Below, in pieces: positions 127 to 30,849 of a DNA stretch of 39,997 nt. This DNA is from Bilabrum cf. latius (taxonomy: Eukaryota), in contig OZ237748.1 in assembly GCA_965178125.1 (NCBI GenBank), forward strand, positions 1,178,001 to 1,217,997. The letters are read 5' to 3'. A program made the translations under genes and the position numbers. The stretch's first letter is position 1. The number at the start of each line of letters is the position of its first letter. A model generated the notes under the pieces. It did no database searches, was not told where the DNA came from, and saw only the letters and a list, made by a program, of their open reading frames with translations.

Positions 127-792
127 GGGAGCAGGGCGCGCCTCGTCCCGAAGCGAGGGAAGCCCAGCGCGGGCGTGACTCGCAGGGTGGTCGCGCAGCT
201 GGTCGCAAGCTGGTCCTGTGGCAGGCCTGGGGGGAGCCGGATGAATGGCCTTGCCGGCTGCTGACCTACGATATTCCGTGCAAAGATTGTTGCATTCAAC
301 ATAGTATGCAATCTATAGCCATGGCGTTTGAATGCGTGCGCGCAGGGTTGTCGGGGTCGCTCACTTCCACAGGTTGTCACTGCCACGGCATCGTCGTAGT
401 ACCCAGTGTTGTACACACGAACGCACCAAAGCTGCGAGCCAGCAAGTTAAGTTGAACACGATGTCTACACGACTTGTTGGTATTGTGATGTAAGTCACAG
501 CTCTTCTGAGCATCGCCACGTATGCCAGTCGTGTACAGGAAATCGCCACGTCACGGTGGCGTTGCCGAGCGGCGAAGATGAATTCCTGAAACACACTCTC
601 GCCTTGCAGCGATGCATGCACCTCGAGCAACCGACTGCCACACACAGTGTTGGAACGCCGCAGTCGTGCATCGTGGAGCCAATATCTGTCCCAATGCAAT
701 GGCGCTGGTGCGGGCGCCGTCTGATCTCCCTGCGAGCAGCGAGGTCCAGAATTCGGATGGTCGGGCCGCTCAGGAAGATGAGTGAAAATCGG

Positions 793-1453
793 GATCTATC
801 ACTGCGAGATTGTTTCGTCATGGTCTACAGTCCTCGCTACGATGCTTGGCTCTCAGGGCGGTGGCGTATTGCCACCTTTGTAGACACGCGTGTGTCTAGT
901 GACCGACCTGGCTCTATCTCCAGGTCATGTGCTAGTGGTCGGGCAGCCCTGGTATGGGCTGCCGAGTCACCATGCCTCACGGCTCTGCCAAGACTTGGAT
1001 TGTCTTGGCGAAGCGGTTACAACCGCTAACAGCGCGGAGCAACAGCCCTGTATCGATTCACTGCCAGTCAGTGCTTGCCCAAGGGGGAAGGTGGGCGGGT
1101 AAAATGTGATGAGTTACGAATGAAAAGACTGGCGATGGGATGCGATAGTAGGCACTGCTGCAGTAGCGCGGCTGTGGTAGTAACTGCGGGGATGGTGGGT
1201 GGGTTCAAAACAACAAGCAGCGGGAATCACCTCCTCTGGAGTTGCCCCTGCCTGTCTTCCCAGTGTGTATTGCCACATAATGACAATTATTACTGAGAAT
1301 ATCGGGGCACAGCTGTAGAACACAGGTGCCACCGAAATTCCGAACAAGTGAGAGCCTCACATCTGCGCTCGGACTTGCGACCAATACTACACAATCTCTC
1401 CGATCTAAATCACTTCGTAACGTGCCTCCGTACCTACGGCACACAACTGACGG
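793..1453. mobile_element. Dispersed non-coding repeat, copy 1 (661 bp), probable non-autonomous element or solo terminal repeat
   Basis: GATCTATCACTG...ACAACTGACGG is near-identical to 6247-6794 with sharp boundaries and unrelated flanks. This copy has a different, longer internal segment at about 1081-1205. Confidence 0.8.
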
Positions 1454-4400
1454 TTTCGGGCTCGGCCGTCGGGGCAAATTTCCGGTGCGTTGCCAGCGTC
1501 GGAGCTCATCGGAGCGCGGCGCGTAGGTTACTCCAGGTCTCAATCTAGCGATCCGGCGGGGCGGCGGGGCGGGTTGGCGTGGTCGAGCAGAGCGGATCGC
1601 GAAAACGACGGAAAGTTTTGCAGCATTGCCCGCCCAGCGGATGCCGTTGCCAGTGGGTGCGTTGCAATGTTTGTCGAAATACGCAGAGATTTGCAAGATG
1701 GATTTTCGAGTTAGGTCCTCGTTCGCGAGCGAGGTCCCCGGACGTCCGATTTCGGCTTGCTGCCGACGGAATTCTCGAGGTTTTTCGCCCCGGCATGCGC
1801 TTTCCCAGCGGTGATCGTGAAGCCGACTGGCATACAAAGTTGCGGATGCGTGATATCAAGTGCTTGGTTGGGGTCCGATGCCGGGTCCGGCGCGCGTGCG
1901 CGGCGCTAGGTCCAATTGTCAAAGTAGGGTGGGAGCGAGCCTATATATAATATCCTTAATCGTCTTAATTCTTTTTTTCGTTGTGTGTCTCCGCTGGTGG
2001 ACCAATCCACCGGTGGATTCAGGCACATCCGATCGGATGGCGATGGCTCTGTGTTCGCTGCCATGTCTGGTTGTATTTGGGTGGTTGAGTCTGTAATAGA
2101 AGCTTTCACGGAGGTCACGATGTCAGTCAGTGACTCATCGGATGTTGCGTTGACGACTTGCGAGCTCACGCCGTCCTTGCGAAGAGAGCGTGAGGCTTCT
2201 GGCGAGCATGGTCGCTCTTGCAGCCATTTTATCACTATCTATTATATCGCATGGCGTTGCGGAGAAACTGCACGAAGGCGTGGAACAGCGCTACGAGGAC
2301 GCTCACGTGGTGTGGCACGAGCACCTGGAAGCCTCCACCGCCGCTTCCCGGCGCCTCGACGCCGCTTCATTCAGCGTCACCAGCATTAAACTGACGGCAA
2401 ATCGCGCGTTAAGCGCAAGGAGGATGCTTCGTGCGGTGCTACATGTGATCGAGGCGGCACGCCGCGTGGAGCAGGATGCCAACGCCACGATCGCGAGGCA
2501 CGGCGCGCCGCAGGAGGCACATGAGCTGCTCGAGGCCAAGTACGGTGGCATATTATGCAGCGTAAAGAAGATCATGTGCGTTCCCGAGCCGGACAAGGAG
2601 GTCAGGTGCGCGAAAAGCGGAACAACCGTGGCATATTTGAGCCTGTGATGTCAGGCAAGTCCACCACGTCACCCTCATCCTAGCTCTCGCATCACGTGGA
2701 ACTGCTGATTCAAGGAGACTTCCCAACTGATTTGGTGGAGAATGCAACGCTCAAATCCATCGATGCAGAGGTGCTGCTATTTCCCCGCCTGGACGCTGAG
2801 GTGCACGGGGTGGAAGCCATGGCGCAAGGGGTGCTTCTGGAGGCACGCGACCCAGATGCCGGCAGCCCCGCAGGAGTGGCTGAGCAGCTGCGCGCCTCTT
2901 CCCGCCGGCTGGACGCGTGGGGGACGCGGGGGCGCGAGGTAGGCAAGCGCAAGGTGGCCGTGGTGCTGTTTGAATGGACGGACCCGTACGAGGGCACGAG
3001 GTTCGAGTTTCCCGAGGACATGATCAACGGGACGTGGGAGCGGATGGCAAACCTTGACGCTCTCGCGAAGAAGTGGAGCTACGGTGCACTGGAGTGGTAG
3101 ACTGACCTGTACGGCATTTACGAGCTGGGGTCTATCCGATACAGCGACCTCGAGCTCATGGCCGAGGAGGGCGCGCGCAGGTTCGAGAGGAGTGCCGTGG
3201 GCAGGCAGCTGGACCTGCTGGAGAAGTACGACTACGTCGCCTACTGGTAGTACTGGTACCCGCCCGCCTCCTTCACGCACGCCGGCGCCTTTGCTGACCA
3301 GCTGGGCAGGTTTTCTTATTACCAGGGCCTGGCGTCAGATCCACGGTGGTTCGAATTCGTCATGATGCACGAAATCGGCCACAACTTTGGCGTGGAGCAC
3401 GTGGGGCTGCTTGATTCCGAGTACGGGGACAGGTGGAGCGTCATGGGATACGGCCCGAAGGAGGGTGCCGGCTTCATCTGCGCCGACAAGTGGAGGAACA
3501 ACTGGATCAGCGACAAGAGGACGGCCCTCGTGAGTCAGAAAGGGGCGGCTGCCGACTGCCCCGGGTGCCTGCCGAGCGGCAGCGTCATTGAGCTAGGGCC
3601 AACCGATATGACCCGCCTTCCCAGCGACGGACCTGACGCCGACACGCCGCCATCCCTGCGGCCCGAGAAGACGAGGGAGTCACAATTGCACCTGTGCCTG
3701 GGTATCGCCCTCACCCCGGAAGGCTACAAGTCCCCCCATTCATTGATGTCTCAATACACCGGCATGCCGAGCGGCTACTTCCGACGCTGGCTCTTCATCG
3801 ATACTTTTGCCTGGAGCGTAAAGGCCTACGAAAGGGGGACCGACCGCAGGGGGTAGTTGCACATGTATGTGGGGAACTACGCCATAGTGCGCAAGAACGT
3901 TAATTAGGTCAATCCGGACACGGAGTGGGAGCATTACGAGAGCGATGGGTCTGTCATTGCCGGAGTGCCCAAGGGAGGGGTGCACATCTACGACGGTTCG
4001 GATCGGCCGGAATCTCGTGATGAGTACGGAAGCCCTTTTGTTCTGATCAGGTACATCGACTCGAAGAACTGGCCGTTTGACCGCAGAGCACCCATCAACA
4101 TTTCTGCGCCCGAGGGCATGGACGCCTACCCCTCCTCTAAGGTAGCCGTAGAGTACACCAACTTCTGGGGCGATGGGCTGTACGGCAAGGGTTGCAGCCT
4201 GCACGCATGCCAGGAGACGATCCAGGAGAGGATCATGAATGCACCTCGCCTGACCCTGGGCCGGATCGACCACGAGGTTCTGGTCGCCCGGTCCGAGCAC
4301 ACCTTTACCTGGAGGATCGATGCTGGTACTGGCGGCCCTCTGCAGCTGTCCCTGTGCCCCGGGGAGAGCGACTACGACGGTGACGTCCCTCCCGTTGGTG

Positions 4401-6246
4401 TCAGCGTCGCTCTGCACCGGGAGTCAATACCGCCGAGGGAGGTGCTGGGGTACGGTGCCCACCCGCACACGCGTGCCTACGTCCGCGGCAAGCGGTGCTT
4501 CGGACAGGATAGCATCGACGAGCGGTACGCAAGCGAGTTCCTGGGGCATGTGGAGCTGGTTCCGGGCGAGAGCTACTACCTGACCGTGTCTGTGAAAGAG
4601 CCAGAGGTGGTCCTTCGCCCGAGGGAGTCGTACCCGATTCACGTCCGGCAGGAGCAGGTCAACCTGCCCTGTGATCAGGTGTCTACTCCCGTGGGGGTGT
4701 TGACGGAGCAAGAGGGGCTGGTGAACGGCAAGCGCAAGTGGGCGGATGCAGAGGGGGTGCGGACGGTGCAGTGGCCCGGCAGCGAGTGGGTAGCCACGAT
4801 CAGCGCCTTCGGACGAGACCAAACCATCCCGCTGGGAAGCGACAAATCTGCCTTCGAGAACGCCATCGTGTGCGTGTGCCCCGAGGGGGCAGTGGCGGCA
4901 TACATGAGCCTGTACTTTGGGAACGAGGACGGGGGCAGGGGCATCTGCAGGACGTGTCCCGTGGGCACCACGTCGAGGGGGGGCTCGCGCGTGCAGGAGG
5001 AGTGCATGACGCGATGTAGGCGTACGATGCAGCGAAAAATGCTGTCGAGCGAGGGGGGGGTCAGGATGCCGAGCAGGTGGGCCTGAAGCTGGCCAAGGAT
5101 ATGGTGTAGGACGGCACGTACGAGAGCGTCCCTGAGGCGATCATTAAGGAGAACATGGTGGCAATGACCGATTACCGCGCCCACGTCGTGGATGTCAAGT
5201 GGGGAGACCCTGTGCAGGGGCGTGGGTGCGCGGGACAGGTGCCGGACAGTGAATCCGGGCTTGCACCTGGCGAGTGCATAGTGGAGTACACCACCACGGG
5301 GGCCATCGCTCAGATGGCTCGCATCGACAGTTTGCTGGAAGATGGGCTCGCGACTGGTGAAAAGAGAGCCACGGTGCCAGTTAACCACACCTTCACGCAC
5401 CAGCAGCCGTGGGCATGGTGGTCCTTCACCATCGACAGGCCCACGTCCGTCTCAATCGACACCTGCCTGAACGGGTCTCGAACCGACGACCGACTGGACC
5501 TGGGCCTGGCCGTCTTCACCATCGAGTCCAACAGGTACGTGCCCGTGTGGCAGAGCCTGGGGATGAACGTCCCTGCGAGTACCAATGCCCGCAGCGTGCA
5601 GTCCCACTGCACCAATCTTGACGTGAGGTCCCCGCACAGCCAGCTGGCACATACCAGCATCCCGACCAACACGAACCACGCAACCGGCGAGTCAATCCCG
5701 GTCAAGGTCGTGGTGATGGCCTACTCGAACAACTGGCTGTACAAACCCGAGGACATGTTCTTCGATGGACAGATCATCGTGGAGTAGAGGCACTCAGTCG
5801 TCGGGTGCAGGCACAACCAGTTCTACGTCAGCACTTACTACTTCCCTGTCAGGGAGATGCCCGACCCGCAGCCGGGCACCGGCGTGCCTATGTATGCCCC
5901 CATCGTCAACGAATGGGACACCTGGCGCGCCACGTCCTTCCCGGAAGGCCGGAACTGGGACTACCTCGCCAAGGCTGGCCCTGACAGCGACAAGTGGGGC
6001 GAGTTCAACTCGACCCATCACCTGCTGAAGACCACTACGATCAATTACGAGCGCCCGTGGTGCTACTGCAGCTGGGGGAGCAACAGCTGGTACGAACCCC
6101 AGAACAAGTGCACCCTGTGCCCCAAGAACATGGTCGGCAGCGATATGAGGGGGTGCTCGTGCCCCTGGCCGATGGTTGGTGTTGGGGAGCACTGCGACCA
6201 CTGCGCCGCTGAAAATTACCTGGCACCAACTGGCTGCGTCGCCTGC

Positions 6247-6794
6247 GATCTATCACTGCGAGATTGTTTCGTCTTGGTCTACAGTCCTCGCTACGATGCT
6301 TGGCTCTCAGGGCGGTGGCGTATTGCCACCTTTGTGGACACGCGTGTGTCTAGTGACCGACCTGGCTCTATCTCCAGGTCATGTGCTAGTGGTCGGGCAG
6401 CCCTGGTATGGGCTGCCGAGTCACCATGCCTCACGGCTCTGCCAAGACTTGGATTGTCTTGGCGAAGCGGTTACAACCGCTAACAGCGCGGAGCAACAGC
6501 CTTGTATCGATTCACTGCCAGTCAGTGCTTGCCCCGCCGTTACCCTCGAAACATCAAGCAGTGGGAATCACCCCCTATGGAGTTGCCCCTGCCTGTCTTC
6601 CCAGTGTGTATTGCCACATAATGACAATTATTACTGAGAATATCGGGGCACAGCTGTAGAACACAGGTGCCACCGAAATTCCGAACAAGTGAGAGCCTCA
6701 CATCTGCGCTCGGACTTGCGACCAATACTACACAATCTCTCCGATCTAAATCACTTCGTAACGTGCCTCCGTACCTACGGCACACAACTGACGG
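6247..6794. mobile_element. Dispersed repeat, copy 2 (548 bp), inserted in the protease coding sequence
   Basis: Near-identical to 793-1453. Begins immediately after the Cys codon TGC (6244-6246) of GCVAC; no target-site duplication visible. Confidence 0.85.
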
Positions 6795-7339
6795 ACTGGT
6801 GGCAGACGCAACCTTGATTCTCGTGTGGTCGGCAAGCAGCAGTGCTCCCTGTGGGATGAAAACGCCCCCGTACCGGTGCAAGAGCAGCCCAGGAACGTGG
6901 CAACGGTCCTTTCTCTCGTGCTGGAGCCGAGCCACCAGCCTAGAACCGGCGCGATTTCACCAGCGGCGGCATCTCGCAGGAAGTTCCCATCGAGGGCCTG
7001 CTGCCGGACCCTCCCACGAGCTTCGGCAGCTCGCATGGGCTCCACCTCCTTGGCTTCCCACACGCCATTATAAGCAGCCATTGGATCCTCGTTCTGGAAG
7101 GACACTCGCAGGCGATCACAGGAAGGGGCGTCGCAGCCGCGGTACAGCGAGGCGTCAGGCATGCCCATGAAGGGGACTTCGTCCACTGGGCAATCCACAC
7201 ATTCAGAAGCGTCATCGTCTTTCGTGGAATCGAGACCGTCGCAGGTCTGCTCGCCCTCCGACTCGTCCTTGTCGGACAGCGGCTACCAGCTGCTTGCCTA
7301 CCCCGAGTCAGCCAGGATGTGGGTGTTGCGACCGATGGC
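6795..7339 (-). other. Inverted 545-bp coding segment of the protease gene
   Basis: The minus strand reads AIGRNTHILADSG*ASSW*PLSDKDESEGEQTCDGLDSTKDDDASECVDCPVDEVPF...RLRLPPV (asterisks are TAG). Flipping it joins 6246 to 7340 in frame. Confidence 0.8.
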
Positions 7340-10300
7340 GCACGACTCCGTACCCCTGCTAGCACGCTGCTCGCTGGAAAGCGACTCGGGAACGCTGCAC
7401 TTCGCTGAGACGCTGGAGGCTGGGTGCTGGGAACGGATGGGCATCGAGGCCAATCCTCTCGCGGCCACGGAATCCTGTGATCGAGCAGCGGATGGGTACT
7501 TCCTGGACGAGGAGACAGCCCTCCCATCCCTTTGCCCTACCCTCCTGAACTCAACGGATAGCAACGTGACGATGCCATCGGGCTGTGCTCCGGGTGCATT
7601 CGACCTTGCGATGCCCCGGTGGCGCAAGCACGAGATCGAGGCGATCGAGGGCACGTGCGAACCCGGATCACTGGCGGACATTGGCTGCTCCTTCGGCTGC
7701 ATGGACGGCAAGTGCACGTGCCCGGCCGGCATGGCCTACGTCTACGAGGACAGTACCTGCGAGGTGTGTCCCGGGGGTACGTTCGCCACCGCCACTGACG
7801 GCCGCTGCCAGAAGTGCCCCGACGGGTCAACGTCACGCAGGGGCACTGCCCGTGCCTCGGATTGCGAGTGCTCTAAGGGCCTGGTCATGCAGGGAGAGGG
7901 CACCAATGCGGCATGTGGTGCACCTGATAGTCTGTATGTGCGTGTGCTTGGACAGGAGCACAGCCACGTCGCGGGGCAATACGTCAGGACGCCCTCGGAC
8001 CTGCCCGGCCTGCACGATGGGTTGCTGAATGGGAGACCCGTCTACCAGCAGCTGCATCCCCTTCGCGCTCCAGGGACCTACCTGGGCTGGGCGCGGCCGG
8101 CGCAGAACGATAAGGGGGGAGAGTGGGCATTTTTCCCCAACACGACCGACGACTTTGCCAGGTTCGCTGCAGCACCCGACAGGCAGGTGCTCAGCCCCTA
8201 CTTAGTGGATCCAGACGACTGGGAGCAGTTCAACAGCTCTACCTATTTCTTCCAGAAGGACGTCGAGATTCAGGTGGTGCTCAGGAGCGGGATTGCCGGC
8301 GTGGAGCACCCAATGCACTCCACCAGAGGACCCGTTGCTATGCAGAAGCATCCTTCACAGGAACAGCTCATCGCCCGACTGGTCGAGAATGGCCTCGCGC
8401 CTGCAGACACCTGTATTTCTTCGGGCAGTGCCGAGCTCTACCACGCGCTAGAGTCGGGTCTGGAGCTCCTCAAGAGGCCCACGAGCATGCTGCAGCGGCT
8501 GCCAGGACTAAAGGGAGCCATGGACTGGGCCGCCTGCGGCGATGCAGCTATCCCAACCTATACCATCGCTGCCACTACCCAGGCCGCGATGGAGGCTGCA
8601 TCTGTTGTGCGCGGTAGAGCGCGCTACGATTCCATGGCGGCATCGGCAAGCATCCTCGAGTCCCGCCTGGAGGCACATGCAGCCTCCGTGGCGACCTGGC
8701 TAGACGCCCGCACCTGGCTGCTTGCTGGCTTGGAGGTACCCTACGAGTACAACTGCAGCGCGTCCGAGATTGCCGCCATGGACGCTAGCTTCACCGTTGC
8801 TGACGCAGTGAATGCGTTTGAAACCGCGATGAATACCATTACCGTGAACTGCAGCGACTTTGGGTCGGGTGACCTGAACGGGATGCATCCCAGTATGTAC
8901 ATGCCTGGGTCCTCTATTTGGAGGCTGCTCACCAATGGTCCTATAAAGGCCGTGCATGTGCTTGCTAATGAGACGCTAACGGATGCCAAGTTGCTGTTTG
9001 AGGGGTACGAGGAGGAGCTGGGGGCGGACTCCAGTGCGAACATGCAGGACCGTGCCGCTGCCACCGCGCAGCTGCCACTGCAGGGACTCCTTGTGCAGGC
9101 CGCAAGGGGGCTACTGGTGCTGTCAAGCGTGACTCAGACGGAAGAACAGCTGTCCAGCGGCAGCATCTCGTCGATCTCAGGTGCCATTTGCCTAAAGGAC
9201 GCGGCTTGCGATGGAGGATGGCAGACCTACACCCCGTCCAGCATGCACGTTGGGTGCCACGCCTCCTGCGAGTCGTCTGCCGACGCAGTGAGCCTTGCCG
9301 CAGAGCTCAAGACGTGTGCCAGCAACTGCCGCAGGGGCTACTGTTCTGTCGAGGGCACGTGCCAGTGCAGCGCCGGCGCGTACGGCACGTGGTGCGATGC
9401 CAGCACGCCTGCCTGCGACAATGTGAATTGCGGGCGGGACGGGGTGTGCGAGGATGGAGCGTGCAAGTGCAACGAGGGGTACGAGGGCAAGCACTGCCAG
9501 ATCCGGGTGCCCACTTACACAAGCACCTACCTGGGCGGCCCTTGCGCCATCGGAGAAGGCGGGTTCTGCGGGAGGCACGGCAAGTGCACGGTCGTGGGAG
9601 ATATGCCTGTGTGCGAGTGCCTTGACGGGTACTGGGGCTCTGCTTGCCACATCCCGTCCGGGGTTGTTGTGGCGGGCGAGCCGGCAGGGGAGGTGGCTCT
9701 ATCTACCCGTTCAGTGGTACACATTCAGGAGAATACGGTGCTGCAGAGGATTCGCGTCTCTACTGGGGCGGCGGAAGCTAGGACGGAGAAGGTGAACCTG
9801 CCGAAGGACGGGACGGCCGTGGTGATTGCCACATTCCCAGGCGTTGAGCTGCCCCGGGGGGCTCGCGTCTCCTCTGCCACGGCGCAATTCGAAGCGGATC
9901 GAGACGACAGTGAGCCCCTGGGCGTGGAGGTGTCGCTGGGGATCGTGGATGATGGAGAGGACTTCCAGCACGTCGATTCTCTTGCTGACGTGGGCATCAT
10001 GTGCGAGCCCGTGAGGTGGGAGGTGCCAAAGCACGCCTTGGAGGTGCCTGTGGTGAGCACGCCTAGCTTCGCTCGTGCCCTAGAGGAGCTCGCGGGGCAT
10101 GCGCGTTGGACTGGCTATGGCACGGTGGTGGTGATGCTGCGGTCTTGGAAGGGCACGGGGCTGCGGGCCATGCGAACGTCGTTCGCTAAGCTTGACTATG
10201 CCTTCCAGCGGCCTGTTGCGGTGGTGGTTCCTGCGGGTGATGATGCCATGGAGAGCATGAACGGCACTGCCAGCGACACGGGCGTGACGACCGTGGTCTC

Positions 10301-11564
10301 TCAGTCGGACCCCCGTTGTCCGCCTCTTGAAGGACCCACCTGCACCGGAAGAGACTTGTGGGACGGTTCCCTTGGCATGTGCGTGCTGCGCCCCGCTGCT
10401 CCCATTGTCTGCCCTCCTGGGATGCTGCTCGACACTGGGGCCCAAACCTGCTTCCCGAGGATTGAATCGGAGGTATGGCCCGTATGCATCGACGATGGCT
10501 CTGCTCTGGATACGGAGCTCCTCGAGTGCAGCTATCCCGACGAGCTGCAGCCCACATGCAGCGACACGTAGATCCTTACGAACGCGTTCTAGTGCGTCGA
10601 GGCTCCCAAGGCGCGCTTCTGTCCTCCTAACGCGCTATACAACCAGAGCTCCAAGTCCTGCGTGACTCTGTGCGAATCCAGCTCCAACGTGATCGGATTT
10701 GGAGCGAGCGGGGGCATGCCCAACGGCGACTGCGCCTTCGTCAACGCCACGGAAAACGACGGCTCCGGCACGCTTTGCCCGTCGAATCCCGTGAACTACG
10801 GGATCAAGAAGGTGGGCAACGAGGTCAAGACGGTCGTCACCGAACTGGTTGAGCAGGTGGTCAGCGGAGCCCTCACGTTCCGCGGGTTGAACCTCGGATC
10901 TTTCGGGGTGGGCATGAAAAACGCGATCAAGAGGAGCTTGGCCCGCACTGGCGGCGTGGATTCGTCCAGGGTGATTATCACCAACATCTTCCGGAAGGAC
11001 CGAGGCGCTGCTAGAAGGCTGCAGGTGGGGTAGCCCTCCAACGGCACGCAAGCCAACAACACGCAGGCCAATGGGACGTCCTCTGACGGCGGCAATTATG
11101 GTAATGGTGGTGATGACAATGGCATCACGATTGAGTACGATGTGCTTGTCGACGATCCCAACACAGCTGACGCCATCGCGACGGCTCTTGATCCAAGCAC
11201 CACCGTCAACGCATCGGCCACGGAAGGTGGCATGGGTGGTGGTAGTGGTGGAATTGGAGCTCCCCCGGTGCAGATATCGTCCCTTGCCCTCATCAGGGCC
11301 ATCTTAGAGGAAGAGCTGGAGGTGGAGAACGTCACGGTGCCAGTCGGCGCCCTTGACGTGGAGCTGGAGCCTCCGCAGCAGGTCTACCGTACCTACGACG
11401 TCGGATTCGAGGAGCCGTCTGCAGTGGACCTGGTGGGTCTGGCTATGGGCATTCCCAGCCCATCCCCCAGTCCCACGCCCTCCAGCTCGCCCACGCCGAG
11501 CATCACCCCATCCACCAGCAGCACCCCCTCTACTACCAGCACCACGACGACTACGCCCACACCA

Positions 11565-11753
11565 GTGAGTCCTCTCGTGCTCCTGCCTGCACTTGCCCAC
11601 TGCTTCGCCTGAAACTGCCCATTGACCAGGTCACATTTGTTTGTTTGCCCCCGTACATGGGTTCTCTAACCCCCTTGTACAGCCTGCTCTGGATGGTAGC
11701 AGTGTATCCGATAAATTTGTTCAAGCCATTATGGTTTTTAAACTCTCCCGCAG
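11565..11753 (+). other. Spliceosomal intron (phase 0)
   Basis: Donor GTGAGT at 11565 and acceptor CTCTCCCGCAG ending at 11753. Removal avoids TGA 11610 and continues the S/T/P stalk into a 36-nt exon (STSSTASVSATP, 11754-11789). Confidence 0.7.
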
Positions 11754-12917: not shown

Positions 12918-15900
12918 TCACGCCCTGACCTGGTCCAGGTCGGCCGGATCACCCTTCCACGGGTCTAAATACCTCCCCGCCTCACGGAAAAGCCTACCCT
13001 CTACCTCACGCGAGTAGTCCCCCCGCCGCATCTGATCGTCACCAACAACGGCCAGCGAGCACATGCAGCCCCGCCTATCTACGCACAGGAACGGATCCAC
13101 CGCCCGATTACCTCTCTGCAAGCCACCTTCACCGTCACGTCGCTGTATCATGAGCGCATCATGGGCCTATGCCAATCCACGGAGGCAAGCCTCCTGCCCC
13201 AACCGCCGACCTGCCTCCTGTATCGTCTTCCTGGCCACATCCAACTCATCCATCTCGGCATGTTCATCAGAATCGCTCCCATCGCCGTCCTCCTACCCGC
13301 ACCTGCCTTTCCTCCCGCCACCACGACCTCCGCTAGAAGCCCGTAACGACGACAGCAGCCTCTGTCCTGCCACCACATGAGCCCTCGAAGGCTCCGTCAG
13401 CTCGTGCCCCACCACATGAGGCTGCTGCTTGAGCACCTCCACCAAGCATCGGGCAACCACCACCATAGCAGCGACAGGCGAAAGGCTATCAGCTTCCTTT
13501 CCGGCCTCTCGCGACTCCTGCACCCCTTCTGCTGCCCTTCCTGCTCCTGCCGCAAGTGCTCCAGCTGCTCCCCCGCCACTCCCCCTCTCGACCAGGTCCA
13601 CCGCCGACAGACACAGCAACACGCTGTCCAACACCCGGCACAGAGCACGAGCAACCTCCGGGTCTACCACGCGCACGCAGTAGCGCTGAGCCCTAACGCT
13701 CATGGCCACAGCTGCAGCAGGACTGGCCATGCTGGTGCCAGTTGCAAGGCCGATTTTGTTCGAGGGCCACAGGCAGTCAGCCAAGGTGACCTCTGTGCCA
13801 GGCTGCCACAGCTGCACGGGGGTCCCTTCACCAGCCCCATGATCAGTTGGAGGTGCCCTCAGTCCCTGAATCACCTTGGCTGCCAGCCCACCGACCGTCT
13901 CCACCAGCCGGGACGGGTCCTGCAGCCGGTCGCTCTCCTTGCCGAATGGCGCCCACTTCTAACCATACCTTAATGTACCGTCCGGTAACCGGTGCGATCG
14001 GAATTCTTCTTGACTACACGGAGCACACAATGCCATAATGGTGAGCACAACCACAATGAGCATGGGCGTCTGCTACAAGATACTGCCGATGCTAGTGCCC
14101 ACGACCGCGGTGGTTGACAGTCCGTACGCTTGGCTCGATATAACTACAACAGCCATACTGACACCAAAACCAAGCCACAGACACTATTGTAGAGCAACTG
14201 TCCACATGAAAGTATTAGGAAAGCGCTTCCAGCGCATGCCGCTCCTGCAGTCGCAGCTTGCGCCTCCCTGACAAGGCGCACTTGACGCAGGAAATGCATG
14301 GCCCTGCAGCTCGTCACGGACAGCTCCTAGTCGAACGCATCGGGCCAACGATGCCTTCCACCGCGACCAAGGCGTGCAAGACACAAGAGCAATCAAATAC
14401 AGCGAAACAGGCTACAGCCAAAACAGCACGAAAAGTGGCAGCGTGGCCAACTTGCCGACGTCGATCCCAGAATGCTTGAACCCCTCGAAACCTAGCACCA
14501 TCGACAGAGGGACACCCACGCAGAGCACCAGCAGCAGCATGGCCAGTCGAGTAGGAAGCATCGTCATCAGCATGGACCGGGGCAGCACGCCTTGCTCAGG
14601 TGCTAAAGCTGACGAGTAGAGGGTCCATCGGCCCGTCATAGGCCAATAGAGATGGTGTGCATTTGACAGCTGCTGTATCGTCTGATCCAGGCGGTTCGGG
14701 TGCGGCAGCAGCTCCAGCAGCACCGGCACTACCACGGCCAAAGAGCAATACAACGTTCCTACGGCAACGATGGCGCGCATTTGGCTGTGATCCATCGGCT
14801 CCCTGTCCCCGTATGCCGCCTCTGCTTGCACTGCCAGAGGCCTCGCCACTGCCGTCAGCAATGCCACCATGCACCAATACGTGACTGCAACTACTTGCGG
14901 GCCGACTAAAGATTGATTATAATTGGATTCTGTCACCGAGTCAGCTGGCGGATACCTGTCTAAGGAGACTAGCGGGTTAGCGCTCGTCCCTCCCCGCATG
15001 CACCCGCACATCTGCAGCACCACCGTCCATCCGATCGTGCTGGCCGACCAAGGCTCCTTCGCCCGCACACAGCTGTAGACCATTGCAGCCACCACCTGCA
15101 GTGCACCTGCAGCCAGCACCCCAAGCAACATGGAATCGATCTGAGGCACAGGATTAGCCGCGTCGGCCCACCGTAGCTACCTCGCCGCTACGTACCGGTT
15201 CCCTGTCACATGCGGATCTCTCAGCGACACACCGCAGTAGACCATGGATCGCTTGATCAAGGCCTCTGTCTCGTTCTTATTATGCAGCATGGGTATAAGC
15301 TGAAGAACGGACCCATTCCGGGGCAGCCTCACTATGGTGTTGTACTGCATGAAGCTTCCCACCGCGCTCCCGTTGTTGCCCTCTGTGAGACCCACCGATA
15401 GGGCGTTCCTCACGCACGTCTGCTGCCAGGGTCCCAGCATCAGCAGGATTGCTACCACTACTATAGCAGCACTTAGGGCACAGCGACAGCACTGGAGATG
15501 GCACAGTAGTTCTGAATGAGAGCAGCACACAGGCGGAGTATACTTGATGCCCTCTAGCCGCCCACCGTTCGCCTTGCTTGCCTCTCCCTCCCTCTCGTCG
15601 ATCAAGTCGGCCTGCTTCTCGTACCACTGGGAGAACACGTACTCGGCCGGGGTATAGGCATTAGTGGTCTGGTTCACGACGATTGGTAGTATGCGTGGAT
15701 TGCCACGGCGATCAAGATAATCCGGGGGATACTCTTGAGGGGACTATACGAGGAGGGGGGTGGCTGCAGTCGGTTGAGGTGCGAAAGCTGGTCCTGTTCC
15801 GGCAATGACGCTAGTTACAGCATCAGCAGCAGCAGCACCTCCACCATTTCTAGCACGGCTATCGACACCTCCAGCAATACCACTGCCACCGGCACTGCTA

Positions 15901-17075
15901 CCACCCCTGCCAGTGCCATACCCAGCAGCACCATGCACTCGGCCCACTTGGTTAAGAGCAGTATCCAACGAGTGCTCAACACGGCAAGTCGTGCCATGTC
16001 CCAGCCCGCTATAGCCCTATGCTCGTACGGCTGCACGCAGTCCTCGCGGGCCGCGACCCTCCTAGGCCTCCTCACAGGGCAGGGGCAGCTCCTTGATGTG
16101 GCCCGAGCGCAGCACGCAGGGGCCTTGCCTGTACCAGTAGGGCCGGAAATCAACATTTCCGACGTTTCCCCGGCAAAATGTTGGCGCTGGCTCCTGTTCC
16201 GAAAAAGCGTCTCCCGCTGACGGCGGAGAGGCCGGGAGCCCGCGCTGATCCACCAACCCATCGAGCGCCGCCAGCGCTCCCCCGCACGGGATGGCAGCGG
16301 CAGCCAGCATAGCATCTTGTCTTGCTCTCATGATGTCAGCAGCAGAAATGTCCAAGCCGTCGCCTGGTTCTGCTGCATGATCCGGATCGCCGTGTGCGCC
16401 CGCCTGCCCGCTCGACCTGCGGACCCCTTCGCCCAACACCACTAAAGGCAGTAAGTCGTCTGCTAACCTCAAGCACAGCGATCCATAAGTATCATGATCT
16501 GCATTTCTAGCCCCAAGCTCGTCGTAACTCCCTCCGGGCCCCGTGCGGGCGGTTGCACCGTCCGCCAAGCGGATACTCGGTAGGCGCTGAGGCTTGGACA
16601 TCGATATCAACGCCTGCACAAGCTCCACTCCCTGCACAACTGACTAGCGCAGCTGATGTCGGCGGGCCGTTTGATAGCTATCCTGCGTACGGCAGTCAGC
16701 ACTGAAGGTGGCTCGGCGAACGACCTCAGCAGGAGCAAGATCCGTCAACCTCATGTGAAGAGAGCAATCTGCCGACGCTGCAACTAGCGCGTTTTGGGTC
16801 CTTGTATCTAGCATTGCCATAAGGGGCTGCCGAATTCCTGTGTAAGGTAAAACATGAGCGAGACGTCCACGAGCAGGTGGAGAATGCAGCAACCACAGCA
16901 GCAAATCACTGCGGTGCATTAGGCAATACCTCACGCCGGTCTGGCACGATTCGGCTAAATGAATCCCTGCGTCCGGCTGATGCGGTACTTGAGCGCATGC
17001 TTGCCATGCTTTGCAAGGGGTTCTGGAGTGGTGATTGTCGCATGCCGAGTCTGAATTGTTGGAACCGCACCCAAC
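12918..17075 (-). CDS. Large (about 1300-1380 aa) hypothetical multi-pass membrane protein; 5' end uncertain
   Basis: Minus-strand ORFs 16644-16934, 16062-16637, 15744-15968, 15177-15677, 14412-15149, 14184-14396, 13293-13904 and 12918-13151 are all in one frame. The frame has 11 TAGs and no TAA/TGA between 12921 and 17075, and ends at TGA 12918-12920. Many hydrophobic segments at about 14000-15500. First in-frame ATG is at 16919. Confidence 0.8.
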
Positions 17076-18549: not shown

Positions 18550-18708
18550 GAAGGAGAGAGAATATAATATGTCTGAGTCAAAGCACACACTACCCAACTA
18601 CAACGACCACCCCAAGAGGCAATCGCGCTGGGCAGGTCGAACGGATCAGCAAGCTCACGCCATGGGCTCCGCAACAGAAGGAGAGAGAATATAATATGTC
18701 TGAGTCAA
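18549..18708 (+). repeat. 33-bp perfect direct repeat (18549-18581, 18676-18708) flanking 94 bp
   Basis: AGAAGGAGAGAGAATATAATATGTCTGAGTCAA occurs twice. Confidence 0.85.
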
Positions 18709-21700
18709 GGAGAGAGAGAGAGAGTATGGGGGCGAATGGAGGGGTTGGGGAGGGTAGAGCAAAGGGAGGGGGGGACGACGGTTCACCGGAACGGGGGAGG
18801 AAATGGTGGAGGAGACGATGATCGGTGGGGTCATTGGGTTGATGAGGCGGATAGGAAGGGGGAGGCACAGGCCGGGCAGGTGTGGGTTGGGGTATGTGTG
18901 ACGAGTGACTCGGATCAGGGGGATCGGATCACCGACCACATGCGGATGTGGAAGTTGAGAGGTCACAATTAGACTCGAGCGGCAATCAAGCCGCGTGCTA
19001 TTCGGGCGCTGAGGGGCAGCATTCGCCAGTTTTCTTATCGCGAGGCTATATTCGGGAATCGCGCGATGGACGCACAGGTTCTAATCGCCTCAGGATACGG
19101 GCCATGGCTAGCAGAGGATGGCGTAGCGAAAAAAGTATAGTATGTTGGCGTATCTACAGAATATTCGTAGATCATGAGCACGGGGAATCTGCTCCCCGAA
19201 GTCAGCCAGAGCGCAGCGATCGATTCTCCTGACTTCTCACCCAGGCTTGCACCGGGCAATGCCGTCTCAAAAGCACCAAGAAGAGATTTTCAGCAAGAAT
19301 TTGAAAGTGCTAGACGCTGTGTGGCTCCGTCGCGCGTCTATGAGCGAGAACGGGGATCTCAGTTGGAAGCTCTTGGTAACGATTTCGTGGCTGCAGCGCG
19401 CGGCATCTTTGCTGGGTTTCCCGCGGTCGAAATGTAGGATCTAGTAATTGAAATCAAGAATCGAGCAGGGCTTGTGTACAAACGTGTGCCTGCTTTGCGT
19501 TTCACGCGGGGTGACATGCAGGCCATTGAGGCTGCCACGGGAATTAGGTTCGTTGACGCTGGCGGCATTGCTGGCGGCGTGAAGGCGATCCATGAGGAAG
19601 CCGGCCTGTTCCTGAAGTTTGCCTTGGATCAGAAAGGGCTGTACGAAAGCGCAATGATGGCTGCCAAGGCCGCGAAGAGGGAGGCGGCGGCGAGCGCAAA
19701 GCTGATGGAAATGGAGAGTTTGGCATGCTCTACGCCGCTGCTCGAGTGCGTGGATCTCCGGCAGCGCTACAAAGATAGTTCCAGAACGAGAATGGTTCGA
19801 GTGTAGGTCTATGCCCGCGTGAGCGTGAGAAGCTTTCGCGCAAATGATAGCTCTTCGTGGCGAGATTCCACCCTCCGCGTCGGATCCTGCGACGGAGGAG
19901 TCACCATGCACACGGACGACGAGCAGGCGAGCGACGTGGTTAAGAGCCTCCAGTCGCAATTCTTCCTGGCGCCAAGCACGAGGAAGGTCGCAAGATTGTT
20001 CCGACACAGCATGGTTGCGGTCGAGCCCGGAGATAGTGCGGCTGGAGCCAGCAGTTCCTGCGGTGGTGACGAACCTAGTGCGTCGAGCGGGGCGGGAGCT
20101 GCCTACTGCACCACCGGAACTGAGATCCAGGACGCATCACCACCTACTGATCAGCCTAGGGGAAAAGCTGGGACTGCCGCCACTGGCGGCCGAGAGGGCG
20201 CGTGCCGAAACTTGCTCGATTTCTTAGCTCGCCACGGACTGCGCGAGCCATCCGCTGCTTTCATCCGGCAGCTGAGCGCAGACTGCCTCACCGATGGCAG
20301 GATGCAACGGAGCAGGGAACACACGGCACCGTTTTGGAGCATGCCGAGCAACGAATACAACGCCCTGGTTGCGAGGAAGACCATTGCGAAACACAGCCTA
20401 AGATTGGATCATGATATTTTGGCAAACGCGACACGGTTTGTTCACATTGTGGAGGCGCAGGAGGCTGTTGACGTCAGCCTGCCTCTACCATTCGATGTTG
20501 AAGTGCACCAGCTTGATGACGGGCAGCGCATGGTGCTGGACACGCACCGCTTGCTGCTTCCAGACGTTCTGTGGATGGATTGGGCTAGCACTCACGCAGA
20601 CGCAAAACCACGCGTGTGGATGCTGTAGCTGGAGGCTGGCGGGGGCGTCCTCAGGCGGGGTACGCTCAGAGAGTACCCGCTTTCTCACTCGCGCGAAAGA
20701 AAACCGAACTTTGAGAGGATCTCGCGGCACCTGAACGACGTGATTTGGGGAGGAAAAGGTGCAGCAGAATCGGGAGTGCTGTCTGCCTGCGGAGGCGGCG
20801 CTGTTGCTGGACCACAAGCGATACACTTTCCGGCTGACCGCATGGAGCACGACAGGGACACCGGCTCCGTTGTTGCCATTGGAATTGCTGCGCCTTTGCA
20901 CGAAGGGGGCAGTGATGCCTAGATTGGCGGCCGCCCTGAGGCCTCGGGCAGTACTGTAGCAGTGGCTGTGATATCGTGCCCGCGATGGTACTACTGTGGG
21001 AACACGTGCCTCACCTGCCTACTCCCCGCCGAGGCGGGTACTGTACTCAGTCAAACGCTCAGTGAAAGCGCTCGCCGGATCTCTCCAGATGCGGTGATGA
21101 GAGGCGATCGCACTGCAATGGAAGTCGTAAGAAAGCGCATTCGGTCACTCTACAAGACGGTCAAGAGCCAAGGCTACGGCTGGGTCCTATACAAACTCGG
21201 GAATCTCGACGAAGAACAGCTGGAGCAGAGACAGGCCTTGCGATCTATGCTCAAGAACGTGATCCACAGCTTTGGGCTCGGTCTGCGTCACGTAAGAGTG
21301 TGGCTGGAAGACGGACGCAGGAGAAAATAGCCAATGGTGGAAGAGCTGGTGCAGGCTATTGCATGTCCTCGGAGCGGCACGCTTGCGTGCGATAGCGTGG
21401 AAAGACTGCATGGCATAGTTTCGCAAGCTTTTTCTAGAATTGTGCCAGACGATGCCACGGGGTATGCAGATTCAACACAAGGTGCGATGGAATTGTCAAA
21501 CCGAATTGCGCTGGAGGCGCGTTGCTTTGCCTCGAAGGGGTTTTACGTTGGGCCTTCCATATCGCTGGATGTTCCACTCGAGCTGAACCGGCCGTATCAG
21601 CGCGATTCGTACCGGCGGTGTGCTGGCACATTCCACAGCATCACAGGAGCTACGTTGGAGTACTGCAGGAGCGGTCCTGCCAGGGCCATCGCGGAGGCGG

Positions 21701-22413
21701 CACACATGCAGAGATGCGGGGGCGACCAGATACCATCGCTGCAGATGCTGTTCGAACAGTTTTATACAGCTCCCGGCTCAGCCAGCCTAGACGTCACATG
21801 CGCCTTGATGCTTTCCAACTTGCATTTCAGCAAATTGCCGCGCACTCGGAGCATTCGCCGATGCATTAAGCTGGGTGAAACGAGTCGTCGATTCTCTCCT
21901 GCGCCGATGCGACTCTGCCACGCCTGCCGAGAATCTGGCGCGGGCTGCCCTGGCCGCTGCCGCTGAGTTTGAGGAGCGCGACCTCACAATTCTCGCTGGA
22001 CTAGGCTTGGCTCACGCATTGTCCTTGGAACGGCTGGATCGTGACGAGGAAGCATGCCGCGCGTACCGCCACTCGGAGTCTGACTGCATGGCATCGGGGG
22101 AGGCGTCCTTGGACATGCAACGCACGGCGGTACAATCGATGGTCGGACATGCCAGGTGCGTTGAGTCCTCTGGTTTACAGTAGGAAGCGTTGGCCTTGCA
22201 TCGGCGCGCGCTCGAACGTGCAGCAGCTACTCTGGGAGTGGAATCGCACGAGCATGTCGACTGTCTCATAGAAACTGCAAAGTGCCTCTGGAACTTGGAT
22301 GAAGACAGGGAGGCGCTCGAGACTGCCAGGAAAGCTTTGAATCTGGCATAGTCGATTAGTGGTCGAGTTCACGACCACCAGCTGCAGGAGCTTGACATCG
22401 TGACTTCCATGAA

Positions 22414-23157
22414 AGCTTCTTTTACAGACTCGCTGGGCACCGCCGCCAGGCCGCCAAGGCTCGCTGCAGGCCCGGGGCCACTGCCTGGAGCGTGTGCAAG
22501 GGATTGATCGCGGGGAATTGACCCCAGCGGCTGCCGGGCCGGTGCTCGGCCTGCCTGCCGCGGCCGGCTGCCGGCACGAGGCCCGGCACCTGCTGGAGCT
22601 CCACCCACAGCTCCACCCGCAGCCCCTGCTGCCAGGGCGCTTGAGGTCGACACCGCGCTCCCGGCGTGCGCATGTGCGTAGGCATCCTCCGCCTTGCGAG
22701 ACAGTACGAAGGTGTCCGAGTCCTGCGCCGTTGCGGTCGGCTCAGGAAGTTCAAGCCAGGATGCGAAGGACGGGAAGGAGTCAGGCAGAACCGTGGAATA
22801 GGGTTGTCCATGCACGCCCTTCATGGTGACCACCGCTGTCAACAAGTATCGAATCATTGATTCAATTATCTGTGCGCGCTTCGGAGACCCACGCCGTACG
22901 CCTTTGATGGCCTCGTTCCACTGCGCCTCTAGCGCGAGGAGCCGCTCTGCGGTAAACCCACACACTCCGGTCACCGATGCCCATTGCATTGGATCAGACA
23001 AGGCCCCAAAGCATGCCTCAAAAAGGAAAATAGCACGTTGAAAACCGGGTTCTTTCAAGGCCAACGTCGTGAAAATGCCACGCCAAAACTGCTGAAGCCG
23101 CGCCATCACGCCCTAGCGCTCCGGCTGAACTGTATCTGCACCCGCACCCGAAGACAT
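22414..23157 (-). CDS. Truncated ORF1/gag-like protein of the insertion (function inferred from position only)
   Basis: ATG at 23157 (MSSGAGADTVQPER*GVMARLQQFW...) reaches ORF 22369-23109 through one TAG. Helical N-terminal part, then an Ala/Gly/Pro-rich linker; runs off the element edge with no stop. Confidence 0.55.
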
Positions 23158-23427
23158 GAGACCACAACAAAAAGAATTCAAGACGATCTGTCAGTCCTGA
23201 GCTCTTCCACCCCGAATGGAGGCGATTGACTGGAGAAATGCCAACCTCCACTCTTCGTGGCCTGCCTCTTCCGTTAATCAGATTACGATGTCTAACGCTA
23301 CAATTCCTCTTCCCACCTACGGACAAGGTGTTGCGGCGTTCTCCTTCTTCGCAGAGCCATCCTCATCGCACAGACGCTTATCATCTCATTTGACGTCAAC
23401 AACGAATCAGACTCTGTCTCCTTAATA
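22414..23427 (-). mobile_element. 1014-bp retroelement-like insertion: about 240-bp terminal repeat followed by a truncated ORF
   Basis: Flanked by the 7-bp direct repeat CCATGAA (22407-22413, 23428-23434). TPR coding stops and resumes at its edges. 23187-23258 recurs at 1-72. Confidence 0.7.
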
Positions 23428-26681: not shown

Positions 26682-26743
26682 TATCTAATATAAAGTCAGG
26701 GACAGGGTCGAGGAAAAAATATTTTCATCTTCATTTTTTGCAT
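26682..26743. repeat. Conserved telomere-junction leader, copy 1
   Basis: TATCTAATATAAAGTCAGGGACAGGGTCG...TTTTCATCTTCA.TTTTTG recurs at 29101 and 38078, each directly after TTAGGG. Confidence 0.9.
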
Positions 26744-29100: not shown

Positions 29101-29161
29101 TATCTATTATAAAGTCAGGGACAGGGTCGGGGAAAAATATTTTCATCTTCACTTTTTGACA
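29101..29161. repeat. Conserved telomere-junction leader, copy 2
   Basis: Near-identical to 26682-26743 and 38078-38139. Confidence 0.9.
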
Positions 29162-30813: not shown

Positions 30814-30849
30814 ATTCATTGTACTTCATTCAGTGCAAGTATGGCGTAT

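What the first reader, a model, noticed from the sequence alone, without database searches (positions are those of the whole stretch)
6247..7340. Insertion-coupled inversion that restores the protease frame to the nucleotide
Seen: deleting 6247-6794 and reversing 6795-7339 gives ...TGC GTC GCC TGC|GCC ATC GGT CGC...CTG CCA CCA GT|G CAC GAC, i.e. GCVAC-AIGR...LPPV-HDSV with no gain or loss of bases. It recreates a CxxCxxG motif like others in this protein. The outer breakpoints carry a 4-bp inverted microhomology (TGCG 6244-6247, CGCA 7339-7342), and element and inverted segment are nearly equal in length (548 vs 545 bp). Inference: a clean recombinase- or transposition-type rearrangement; a reversible switch for a surface protease is speculative.
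Basis: partly seen in the sequence, partly recalled or inferred. Interest (0 to 1): 0.72.

Follow-up and report, generated by a model that had tools for sequence, protein, structure and literature searches.

The report
Transposon-hit gene with a flipped block
A repeated mobile element has landed inside a large surface-protease gene of a marine-type eukaryote, and about 320 bases a little further on read on the opposite strand; this looks like ordinary gene damage near a chromosome end, not a reversible switch.

Summary
Partly confirmed. 6247-6794 is a real multicopy element: a second copy lies at 793-1453 with the same ends, and its read depth is several to tens of times that of the flanks. 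Removing the 548-bp element alone already puts the upstream ORF into the downstream ORF's frame (+ frame 0, open 6792-11612 except TAA 7071). Any flipped segment of the right phase is then "in frame".

They are not fatal, because this genome reads TAG as sense: 28 TAG, 0 TAA and 0 TGA in 5134 codons, and 7 of 7 ORFs end in TGA.

Codon statistics show a real opposite-strand coding block, at about 6954-7273. The 160 bp next to the element look + strand coding. The 4-bp microhomology is at chance level.

Contigs of two runs carry the present arrangement and no alternative junction. No homologue exists to polarise the event.

Best reading: a simple element insertion plus a separate small static inversion, or an antisense insertion, in a subtelomeric gene. 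A switch is unsupported.

The parts
2208..5086 (+). N-terminal part of the large surface-protease gene. It starts at ATG 2208 with a hydrophobic, signal-peptide-like beginning, and carries HEIGHNFGVEH (peptidase M11-type zinc site) at about 3368-3400. The frame changes +0 to +2 near 2630, and the + frame 2 ORF runs 2525-5086.
   Evidence: Translation. Pfam PF05548 Peptidase_M11 scores 22.6-22.8 bits against a cut-off of 21, over a short match only. Frame map. Five in-frame TAGs.
5014..6246 (+). Upstream ORF ('L', + frame 1). It ends in Cys-rich CxxC modules (...CDHCAAENYLAPTGCVAC) and is cut at 6246 by the element.
   Evidence: Codon log-likelihood is positive in + frame 1 over 5000-6259. Sequence. 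As it stands, the frame runs on into the element to TAA 6481 or TGA 6622.
6247..6794 (+). 548-bp multicopy non-autonomous element. It has a 63-bp imperfect inverted repeat (6247-6309 against 6690-6752), a 42-nt tail (6753-6794) and a variable centre (6535-6545).
   Evidence: Second copy and exact ends. Word depth is 378-2019 against 84-96 in the flanks in X1, and 325-552 against 10-15 in X3. Internal inverted repeat is 68% over 63 nt. No coding signal in any frame. No Rfam match.
793..1453 (+). Second copy of the element, upstream of the gene. It carries 124 bp in its centre (1081-1204) where the other copy has 11 bp.
   Evidence: The flanks are ...AAAATCGG | TTTCGGG..., with no target-site duplication.
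6795..6953 (+). Stretch next to the element that looks + strand coding. It is in phase with L once the element is removed, and reads TGGRRNLDSRVVGKQQC...
   Evidence: + frame 0 scores +8.3 bits against -2.4 for minus frame 1. The delta of -11.3 for a minus-strand reading is matched by 1 of 487 windows and by 1.6% of 818 windows in the post-hoc test. The next Cys comes after 16 residues, like the gene's other CxxC modules at 10-15. The right edge is uncertain (6924-6972).
6954..7273 (-). Block coding on the opposite strand (minus frame 1): ...DKDESEGEQTCDGLDSTKDDDASECVDCPVDEVPF...RLRVSFQNEDPMAAYNGVWEAKE... It has no start or stop of its own.
   Evidence: Edges have 3-bit support of 6924-6972 and 7258-7390. 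The block is single-copy by depth, and a contig covers 6766-9000 with 0 differences in X1 and X3.
7071..7073 (+). TAA, the only non-TAG stop in + frame 0 between the element and the end of the gene. It lies inside the antisense block.
   Evidence: TAA occurs 0 times in 5134 coding codons.
7283..7300 (-).
7274..11612 (+). Downstream ORF ('R', + frame 0). It holds Cys-rich and EGF-like modules, a Ser/Thr/Pro-rich stalk and a hydrophobic C-terminus, and stops at TGA 11610-11612. The left edge is uncertain (7258-7390).
   Evidence: Pfam EGF_TEN and EGF_Teneurin. Sequence. Stop codon. Codon signal.

Best explanation
Two separate structural lesions lie in one large, subtelomeric, Cys-rich surface metalloprotease gene of a eukaryote that reads TAG as a sense codon.

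Lesion 1. A young 548-bp non-autonomous repeat inserted plainly between 6246 and 6795. Nothing is rearranged at its edge. As the DNA stands, the upstream ORF runs into the element and ends there.

Lesion 2. About 160 bp further on, a block of roughly 320 bp (about 6954-7273) lies in the opposite orientation. The simplest origin is a small in-situ inversion made by break repair or replication template switching.

The result is a fixed, disabling arrangement: a truncated or dead gene copy in a fast-changing chromosome end. It is not a controlled switch.

Shown: the element, its ends and its copy number; the present junctions in reads; the opposite-strand coding signal and its approximate limits; TAG as a sense codon.

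Inferred: that the block was flipped in place, that the gene is disabled, and that the two lesions are independent.
For: - Element and exact ends.
- Removing the element alone restores the frame: + frame 0 is open 6792-11612 with 3 TAG and 1 TAA.
- Minus-strand coding signal at about 6954-7273: +31 bits against -5. None of 482 true-coding windows is as reversed. It is one of 18 regions at 25 bits or more, and no shadow frame of a known ORF in the window reaches that level. Best segmentation scores 67.9 bits against 23.2 for all-plus.
- + strand signal in 6795-6960. CVAC-TGG...C spacing of 16 matches the gene's modules.
- Two TAGs within 19 codons at 7283-7339 are unusual for the minus frame if it were coding (TAG is 28 of 5134 codons). 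This favours a right edge left of 7283.
- Contigs of X1 and X3 cover 4500-6273 and 6766-9000 with 0 differences, and no other joints are listed.
- Subtelomeric setting: TTAGGG arrays at 25874-26682, 28267-29101, 37753-38078 and 39395 to the window end.
Against: - No homologue or paralogue exists to show the ancestral order. There were 0 hits for the block in 1.84 billion representatives, 0 for the flanks, and no internal similarity (z at most 1.7).
- Block limits rest on codon statistics trained on only about 5100 codons of this window.
- Being next to a mobile element is suspicious, and a single complex event cannot be excluded.
- The gene also changes frame near 2630 and 5015 without visible introns, so its expression rules are not understood.
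- No RNA data were available.
Confidence: 0.5

Rival explanations
1. One reading: the whole 545 bp (6795-7339) is one inverted segment whose left breakpoint is the element's end. It was made in one transposase- or recombinase-type event, such as aberrant or one-ended transposition.
For: - Taken as a whole, 6795-7339 scores as minus-strand coding: delta +29.3 bits, at the 30th percentile of true coding, and 0 of 424 windows are as reversed.
- The model gains 29 bits over no inversion.
- With TAG as sense, the minus frame is open end to end.
- An inverted TGC(G)/(C)GCA match sits at the two outer joints.
- The right edge 7339 lies within the 3-bit support interval.
Against: - The model scores 15.6 bits below the best segmentation.
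- 6795-6960 looks + strand: 1 of 487 windows, or 1.6% of 818 in the post-hoc test.
- Frame restoration is automatic.
- The microhomology is at chance level: 2428 of 5000 shuffles give a hit.
- The other copy of the element shows no target duplication that could be matched to an inverted one.
- Two TAGs fall within 19 codons at its supposed start.
Confidence: 0.1
2. The antisense block is not flipped local sequence. It is a piece of another gene copied or captured into this gene in reverse orientation, for example as filler DNA at a repaired break.
For: - The block has no start or stop of its own and shows no similarity to the rest of the gene.
- The setting is subtelomeric and repeat-rich.
- The codon statistics fit this reading as well as an in-situ inversion.
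Against: - The block is single-copy at 31-mer level: depth is 95.7, as in the flanks, so no identical source copy exists.
- No relative was found anywhere.
- The model needs a block length divisible by 3, and the present limits cannot test this.
Confidence: 0.18
3. There is no rearrangement. The + strand codes throughout 6795-7340, TAA 7071 is a recent nonsense change, and the minus-strand signal is the usual shadow of a GC3-rich gene.
For: + frame 0 is open but for one TAA. The two frames share their third codon position, so each shadows the other.
Against: - The all-plus model is 44.7 bits worse than the best segmentation.
- None of 482 true-coding 66-codon windows shows a delta of -32.6 or lower.
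- No shadow frame of a known ORF reaches 25 bits per 107 codons, but this block does.
- The + translation there is Ser/Arg/Ala-rich, as in an antisense reading.
Confidence: 0.04
4. A programmed or reversible arrangement: either an invertible switch for a surface protease, or a scrambled gene that is put in order at the DNA level, with the element removed like an eliminated sequence.
For: The lead is weak.
Against: - No in-phase inverted repeats flank the block. The best pair, 6827-6840 against 7289-7302 (13 of 14), is out of phase.
- No recombinase family was found in the ORFs scanned.
- No alternative joint was found in contigs of X1 and X3, although contigs drop rare variants.
Confidence: 0.03

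Closest known systems
Transposon-induced flanking inversions by alternative or aberrant transposition (maize Ac/Ds; Tam3 in Antirrhinum)
   Same: A mobile element lies beside an inverted stretch of host DNA inside or near a gene. Ac/Ds inversions made by alternative transposition are described in PMC8225341 and PMC1592236; I saw only the search listing and abstract starts. The Tam3 case is recalled from memory.
   Different: In those cases the inversion breakpoint is the element's terminus and carries the family's target duplication (recalled from memory). Here the best-supported left edge lies about 160 bp from the element. The element shows no target duplication in its 2 copies. Only one element is present at the locus.
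Small inversions from break repair or replication template switching (microhomology-mediated; recalled from memory)
   Same: A static inverted block of a few hundred bp, with no long flanking repeats and no dedicated enzyme.
   Different: No diagnostic microhomology could be fixed here, because the breakpoints are known only to about +/-25 nt and +/-65 nt.
Site-specific invertible switches (invertons such as fimS or hin; recalled from memory)
   Same: A short DNA segment whose orientation decides whether a surface protein can be made.
   Different: Neither defining inverted repeats nor a recombinase were found. Only one orientation is seen. The organism is a eukaryote.
Non-autonomous DNA transposons (internally deleted derivatives, MITE-like)
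   Same: Multicopy, with fixed ends, a variable deleted centre and long imperfect inverted repeats.
   Different: One inverted-repeat arm is subterminal, with 42 nt beyond it. No target duplication is seen. No superfamily could be assigned: Rfam gave none, there is no coding capacity, and exact-pattern scans of JGI metagenome contigs and IMG/VR found no copies.
Nuclear codes with UAG as sense and UAA not reassigned (rhizarian exLh, Iotanema spirale; PMC5304391, abstract read)
   Same: In-frame TAG inside long ORFs, TAA absent from coding sequence, and TGA as terminator.
   Different: The amino acid is not determined here and no tRNA was found in the window.

Membership tests
Invertible DNA switch (site-specific inversion) | Inverted repeats bounding the invertible segment | tested here: not met
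The best inverted repeat in the region, 6827-6840 against 7289-7302 (13 of 14 nt), is out of phase. No repeat of 7 nt or more has arms in both support intervals.
Invertible DNA switch (site-specific inversion) | Both orientations present in a population | tested here: inconclusive
   Contigs of X1 and X3 carry only the present order and no joints are listed. Contigs drop rare variants, and the runs may be the assembly's own source.
Invertible DNA switch (site-specific inversion) | A recombinase encoded nearby | tested here: not met
   Pfam scans of 24 ORF translations from the window gave only M11, EGF_TEN, CLU, TPR and weak metalloprotease families. Not every ORF of the window was scanned.
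Transposon-induced adjacent inversion | An inversion breakpoint exactly at the element's terminus | tested here: not met
   The codon segmentation puts the left edge at 6954 (6-bit support 6858-7041), which excludes 6795. The stretch 6795-6960 favours the + strand. This rests on statistics, not on a relative.
Transposon-induced adjacent inversion | The target duplication of the family split, in inverted orientation, between the two breakpoints | tested here: inconclusive
   TGC(G) and (C)GCA are present but at chance level. The family's own target duplication is unknown, and none is seen at copy 793-1453.
Non-autonomous DNA transposon | Many copies with identical termini at different sites | tested here: met
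   There are two copies in the window. Depth is 4 to 45 times that of the flanks. Other copies' flanks diverge at 6247 and 6794 in X1, X3 and X7.
Non-autonomous DNA transposon | Terminal inverted repeats and a target-site duplication | tested here: inconclusive
   A 63-bp imperfect inverted repeat (68%) is present, but the right arm ends 42 nt inside the element. Neither of the 2 copies has a duplication.
Peptidase M11 (gametolysin) | HExxHxxGxxH zinc site and a match to PF05548 above its cut-off | tested here: met
   HEIGHNFGVEH is present. PF05548 scores 22.6-22.8 bits against a cut-off of 21, but only over 34-44 residues of a 303-position profile. It is a marginal member.
Nuclear code with UAG read as sense | In-frame TAG inside long coding ORFs while the other stops are absent, and genes ending in another stop | tested here: met
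   There are 28 TAG, 0 TAA and 0 TGA in 5134 codons. Seven of 7 ORF ends are TGA. ORFs of 853-1512 codons appear only when TAG is read through.
Nuclear code with UAG read as sense | A cognate tRNA(CUA), and the amino acid fixed from conserved alignments | not testable with these tools
   There is no tRNA in the window and no whole genome is held. No alignable homologues were found.

The most novel reading that the evidence does not exclude
The element insertion and the antisense block are two scars of one transposase-driven event at a chromosome end. In that case this unclassified element family, which shows no target duplication, would reshuffle subtelomeric surface-protein genes by local inversion. 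More boldly, the gene could be put back in order at the DNA level in some cells or stages. In either case other copies of the element elsewhere in the genome would show the same neighbouring flipped coding blocks.
Probability: 0.07. Interest if true: 0.65.

Novelty: new member of a known kind. Interest (0 to 1): 0.3.

Why it matters
As a structural finding it is modest: a mobile-element hit plus a small inversion in a subtelomeric gene copy is the expected wear of such regions.

Two things give it some value. First, it shows that 'the frame is restored' can follow automatically from the geometry. The two frames concerned share their third codon position, so in GC3-rich genomes each reads as an open shadow of the other. 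Frame restoration should therefore not be taken as evidence for an inversion there.

Second, the check exposed a genome that reads TAG as sense with TGA as its only observed terminator. It also exposed a young, unclassified element family shared by runs labelled as several organisms. Both deserve their own follow-up, and both affect how every gene of this organism is called.

Tried and rejected
- Whole-genome look-ups: none is held.
- Homologues to polarise the event: the 162-aa minus-strand ORF against 1.84 billion representatives gave 0 hits. The downstream ORF gave 0 hits against longer proteins and proteins of near length. The M11 region gave 0 hits.
- PDB search with the neighbouring CLU-like ORF to decode TAG: 0 hits.
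- Pfam on both readings of 6795-7339: nothing.
- Smith-Waterman of both readings against the 6 long ORFs of the window, with 100 shuffles each: z from -1.4 to 1.7. My by-eye resemblance to a downstream module is therefore not supported.
- AlphaFold2 without an alignment on the 181-aa minus reading: mean pLDDT 37, uninformative.
- ESM Atlas: best score 0.77, to piggyBac-type clusters. This is below the tool's noise level and I rejected it as a lead.
- Other copies of the element, with flanks: two exact patterns in JGI metagenome contigs and one in IMG/VR gave 0 matches.
- Rfam over 500-7600: 0 matches. tRNAs in the window: 0.
- Earlier scan notes: nothing for this genome, sequence or relatives.
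- No RNA holder was listed among the sequencing runs, so expression could not be examined.
- Intron explanations: 19-nt and 27-nt GT..AG candidates around the TAGs, and a GT-AG pair at 6983/7279, were considered by eye and dropped. The TAGs are explained by the code, and the long ORFs show no introns.
- A 7-nt direct repeat, CAGCGGC, at 6961 and 7277 was read by eye. It was considered as a target duplication and dropped, because removing the 316 nt between the repeat starts would break the frame and such a repeat is expected by chance (my arithmetic).
- The minus ORF 22369-23190 between two TPR-coding stretches was checked as a possible second flipped block. It looks like an ordinary separate gene.
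Full report
SETTING. The window is eukaryotic and no whole genome is held for it. It is about 60% G+C over the gene-bearing half. Its right third is built of TTAGGG arrays (25874-26682, 28267-29101, 37753-38078, and 39395 to the window end), interleaved with 155-bp and 22-bp satellites. The locus is therefore subtelomeric. Sequencing runs that hold parts of the stretch carry coded organism names or marine, algal and protist metagenome labels. I did not try to name the organism.

GENETIC CODE. Every interruption of the coding-like frames is a TAG, and the protein-like reading runs straight through each one. Reading TAG as sense turns fragments of about 200 codons into ORFs of 853, 1129, 1385 and 1512 codons. 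In 5134 codons of five such ORFs there are 28 TAG, 0 TAA and 0 TGA. The A-ending partner of comparable codon pairs takes 20-32% of use, so TAA is not a synonym of TAG. The three ORFs that reach a TAA have it at the edge, and the other two have none. Seven of 7 ORF ends are TGA. UAG-only reassignment is known from a few lineages (PMC5304391, abstract; compare PMC6394959, passages). The amino acid could not be fixed here: there is no tRNA in the window and no alignable homologue.

THE GENE. Its parts, in order, are:
- An ATG at 2208 opens a hydrophobic, signal-peptide-like start.
- HEIGHNFGVEH gives a marginal Peptidase_M11 match of 22.6-22.8 bits against a cut-off of 21.
- Cys-rich CxxC modules follow.
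- The downstream ORF has EGF_TEN-type modules, a Ser/Thr/Pro stalk and a hydrophobic end, and stops at TGA 11610-11612.

The coding frame runs +0, then +2 from about 2630, then +1 from about 5015. After the element it is +0. The two earlier frame changes have no visible intron and are unexplained.

THE ELEMENT IS REAL.
- 6247-6534 and 6546-6794 recur at 793-1080 and 1205-1453, at 99.0% and 98.0% identity, and identity ends exactly at 6247 and 6794.
- In contigs of run X1 the summed word depth over the element is 378-2019 against 84-96 in the flanks. In X3 it is 325-552 against 10-15. Other copies' flanks diverge at 6247 and 6794 in X1, X3 and X7.
- Runs labelled as other organisms (X5, X7) hold the element but not the flanks.
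- It has a 63-bp imperfect inverted repeat (6247-6309 against 6690-6752, 68%) followed by a 42-nt tail. The centre varies (11 bp here, 124 bp in the other copy). Neither copy has a target duplication.
- It has no coding signal and no Rfam match.
- I could not class it further. Exact-pattern scans of JGI metagenome contigs and IMG/VR found no more copies.

THE FRAME ARGUMENT FAILS AS EVIDENCE. The element is 548 nt, which is 2 mod 3. The upstream codons end at 6246. After simple removal the next codon starts at 6795, which is + frame 0, the frame of the downstream ORF (7341-6795 = 546). That frame is open from 6792 to 11612 apart from sense TAGs and one TAA at 7071. The downstream ORF therefore stays in phase for any flipped segment [a..b], and the minus frame that is read depends only on (a+b) mod 3. 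That minus frame shares its third codon position with + frame 0, so each is the other's open shadow. The other supports are weak too:
- In-phase CGCA occurs at 7132, 7240 and 7339, and 2428 of 5000 shuffles give at least one.
- The un-inverted reading gives CVAC-TGG, also a CxxCxxG. Its next Cys comes after 16 residues, like the 10-15 in 5 of the gene's 6 CxxC modules. The reversed reading has its next Cys after 32 residues.

WHICH STRAND CODES. I scored codons with a table trained on the window's long ORFs (TAG included) and calibrated it leaving one ORF out.
- Taken whole, 6795-7339 behaves as minus-strand coding: delta +29.3 bits, at the 30th percentile of true coding, and 0 of 424 windows are as reversed.
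- The signal is uneven. Over 6961-7282, minus frame 1 scores +31 against -5 for + frame 0. Over 6795-6960, + frame 0 scores +8.3 against -2.4. Over 7283-7340 the scores are +4.3 against +2.0.
- The stretch 7073-7282 is more reversed than any of 482 true-coding windows. The stretch 6795-6960 looks reversed the other way: 1 of 487 windows, or 1.6% of 818 windows when the post-hoc choice of an end-anchored stretch is allowed for.
- A window-wide scan finds only 18 regions with 25 bits or more per 107 codons. These are the known ORFs, a few further likely genes, four satellite or telomere-repeat arrays that are artefacts, and minus frame 1 at 6947-7387. No shadow frame of a known ORF qualifies.
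- Maximum-likelihood segmentation (+, -, +) gives 67.9 bits for 6954-7273, with 3-bit support of 6924-6972 and 7258-7390.

A real antisense-coding block therefore exists, but its left edge is about 160 bp from the element. Its right edge is loose and may or may not be 7339. Two TAGs in the 19 codons 7283-7339 argue mildly for an edge left of 7283, given that TAG is 28 of 5134 codons.

READS. Contigs of X1 and X3 cover 4500-6273 and 6766-9000 with no differences. They run 27 and 29 nt into the element, just under the tool's 31-letter bridging rule, and cross 7339/7340 fully. No alternative joints are listed. The arrangement is therefore not an assembly slip. These runs may be the assembly's own source, and contigs drop rare variants. 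No RNA holder was listed.

NO OUTSIDE HELP. The block, the flanks and the protease region have no detectable relatives. Neither reading matches Pfam. There is no internal paralogy. The fold and language-model look-ups were uninformative. The ancestral order therefore cannot be read from a relative, which is the main weakness of every model here.

MECHANISM. My estimates are:
- About 0.5: a plain insertion of a young element, plus a separate small inversion of roughly 320 bp made by break repair or template switching. Together they truncate a subtelomeric surface-protease gene copy.
- About 0.18: the block is a foreign coding fragment captured in reverse.
- About 0.04: no rearrangement at all.
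- About 0.03: a programmed or reversible arrangement. There are no phased inverted repeats, no recombinase among 24 ORF translations scanned, and one orientation only.

COMPARISON. The locus works like known transposon-associated or repair-born small inversions. It fails the tests that define an inverton. It also fails, on present statistics, the test that defines a transposon-induced adjacent inversion, namely a breakpoint at the element's terminus. Ac/Ds examples are PMC8225341 and PMC1592236, of which I saw only the listing and abstract starts. The element behaves as an internally deleted non-autonomous DNA element but lacks a visible target duplication.

VERDICT. The locus is an ordinary kind of lesion involving an unclassified element. 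Interest is about 0.3. The TAG-sense code and the unexplained frame changes are the more remarkable things seen.

Noticed in passing
whole window; e.g. TAG codons at 2681, 3098, 3248, 3854, 3905, 5017, 5107, 5785, 10569, 10590, 11031: TAG is read as a sense codon: 28 TAG, 0 TAA and 0 TGA in 5134 codons of five long ORFs. Seven of 7 ORF ends are TGA, and TAA is absent from coding sequence. The encoded amino acid was not determined.
   Followed up: partly
about 2630, about 5015 and about 21840: The reading frame changes inside genes with no intron-sized gap: +0 to +2 and +2 to +1 in the protease gene, and +1 to +2 in the CLU-like gene. The one at 5015 lies in contigs of two runs with 0 differences. 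These could be real frameshifts, recoding or pseudogenes; I could not tell which.
   Followed up: partly
25874-26682, 28267-29101, 35582-35695, 37753-38078, 39395-39997: Five TTAGGG-type arrays of up to 139 units, the last running off the window end. They are interleaved with a 155-bp satellite (26744-27820, 29162-30817, 38139-38859) and a 22-bp satellite (30852-33327). This is a subtelomere with stacked interstitial telomere tracts.
   Followed up: no
1-72 against 23187-23258; 2087-2125 against 22393-22431: A perfect 72-nt inverted repeat lies 23 kb apart, touching the window start. A 39-nt one (92%) encodes a similar peptide (ESVIEAFTEVTMS / ESVKEAFMEVTMS) at the end of a minus-strand ORF at 22369-23190. 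This may be a second repeat family or a paralogous gene pair.
   Followed up: partly
18577-22507 (+) and 23426-24937 (+): A CLU (clustered mitochondria) domain ORF with 8 in-frame TAGs is followed by TPR_12 stretches. A second TPR ORF lies beyond a minus-strand ORF.
   Followed up: no
6247-6794 in runs X5 and X7: The element, but not its flanks, is present in runs labelled as other organisms: 1-10 differences per contig piece, and depth of 166-285 in X7. Either close relatives lack this locus or the element is shared more widely.
   Followed up: no
12918-17075 (-): A 1385-codon ORF with 11 in-frame TAGs and several long hydrophobic stretches has no Pfam family.
   Followed up: no
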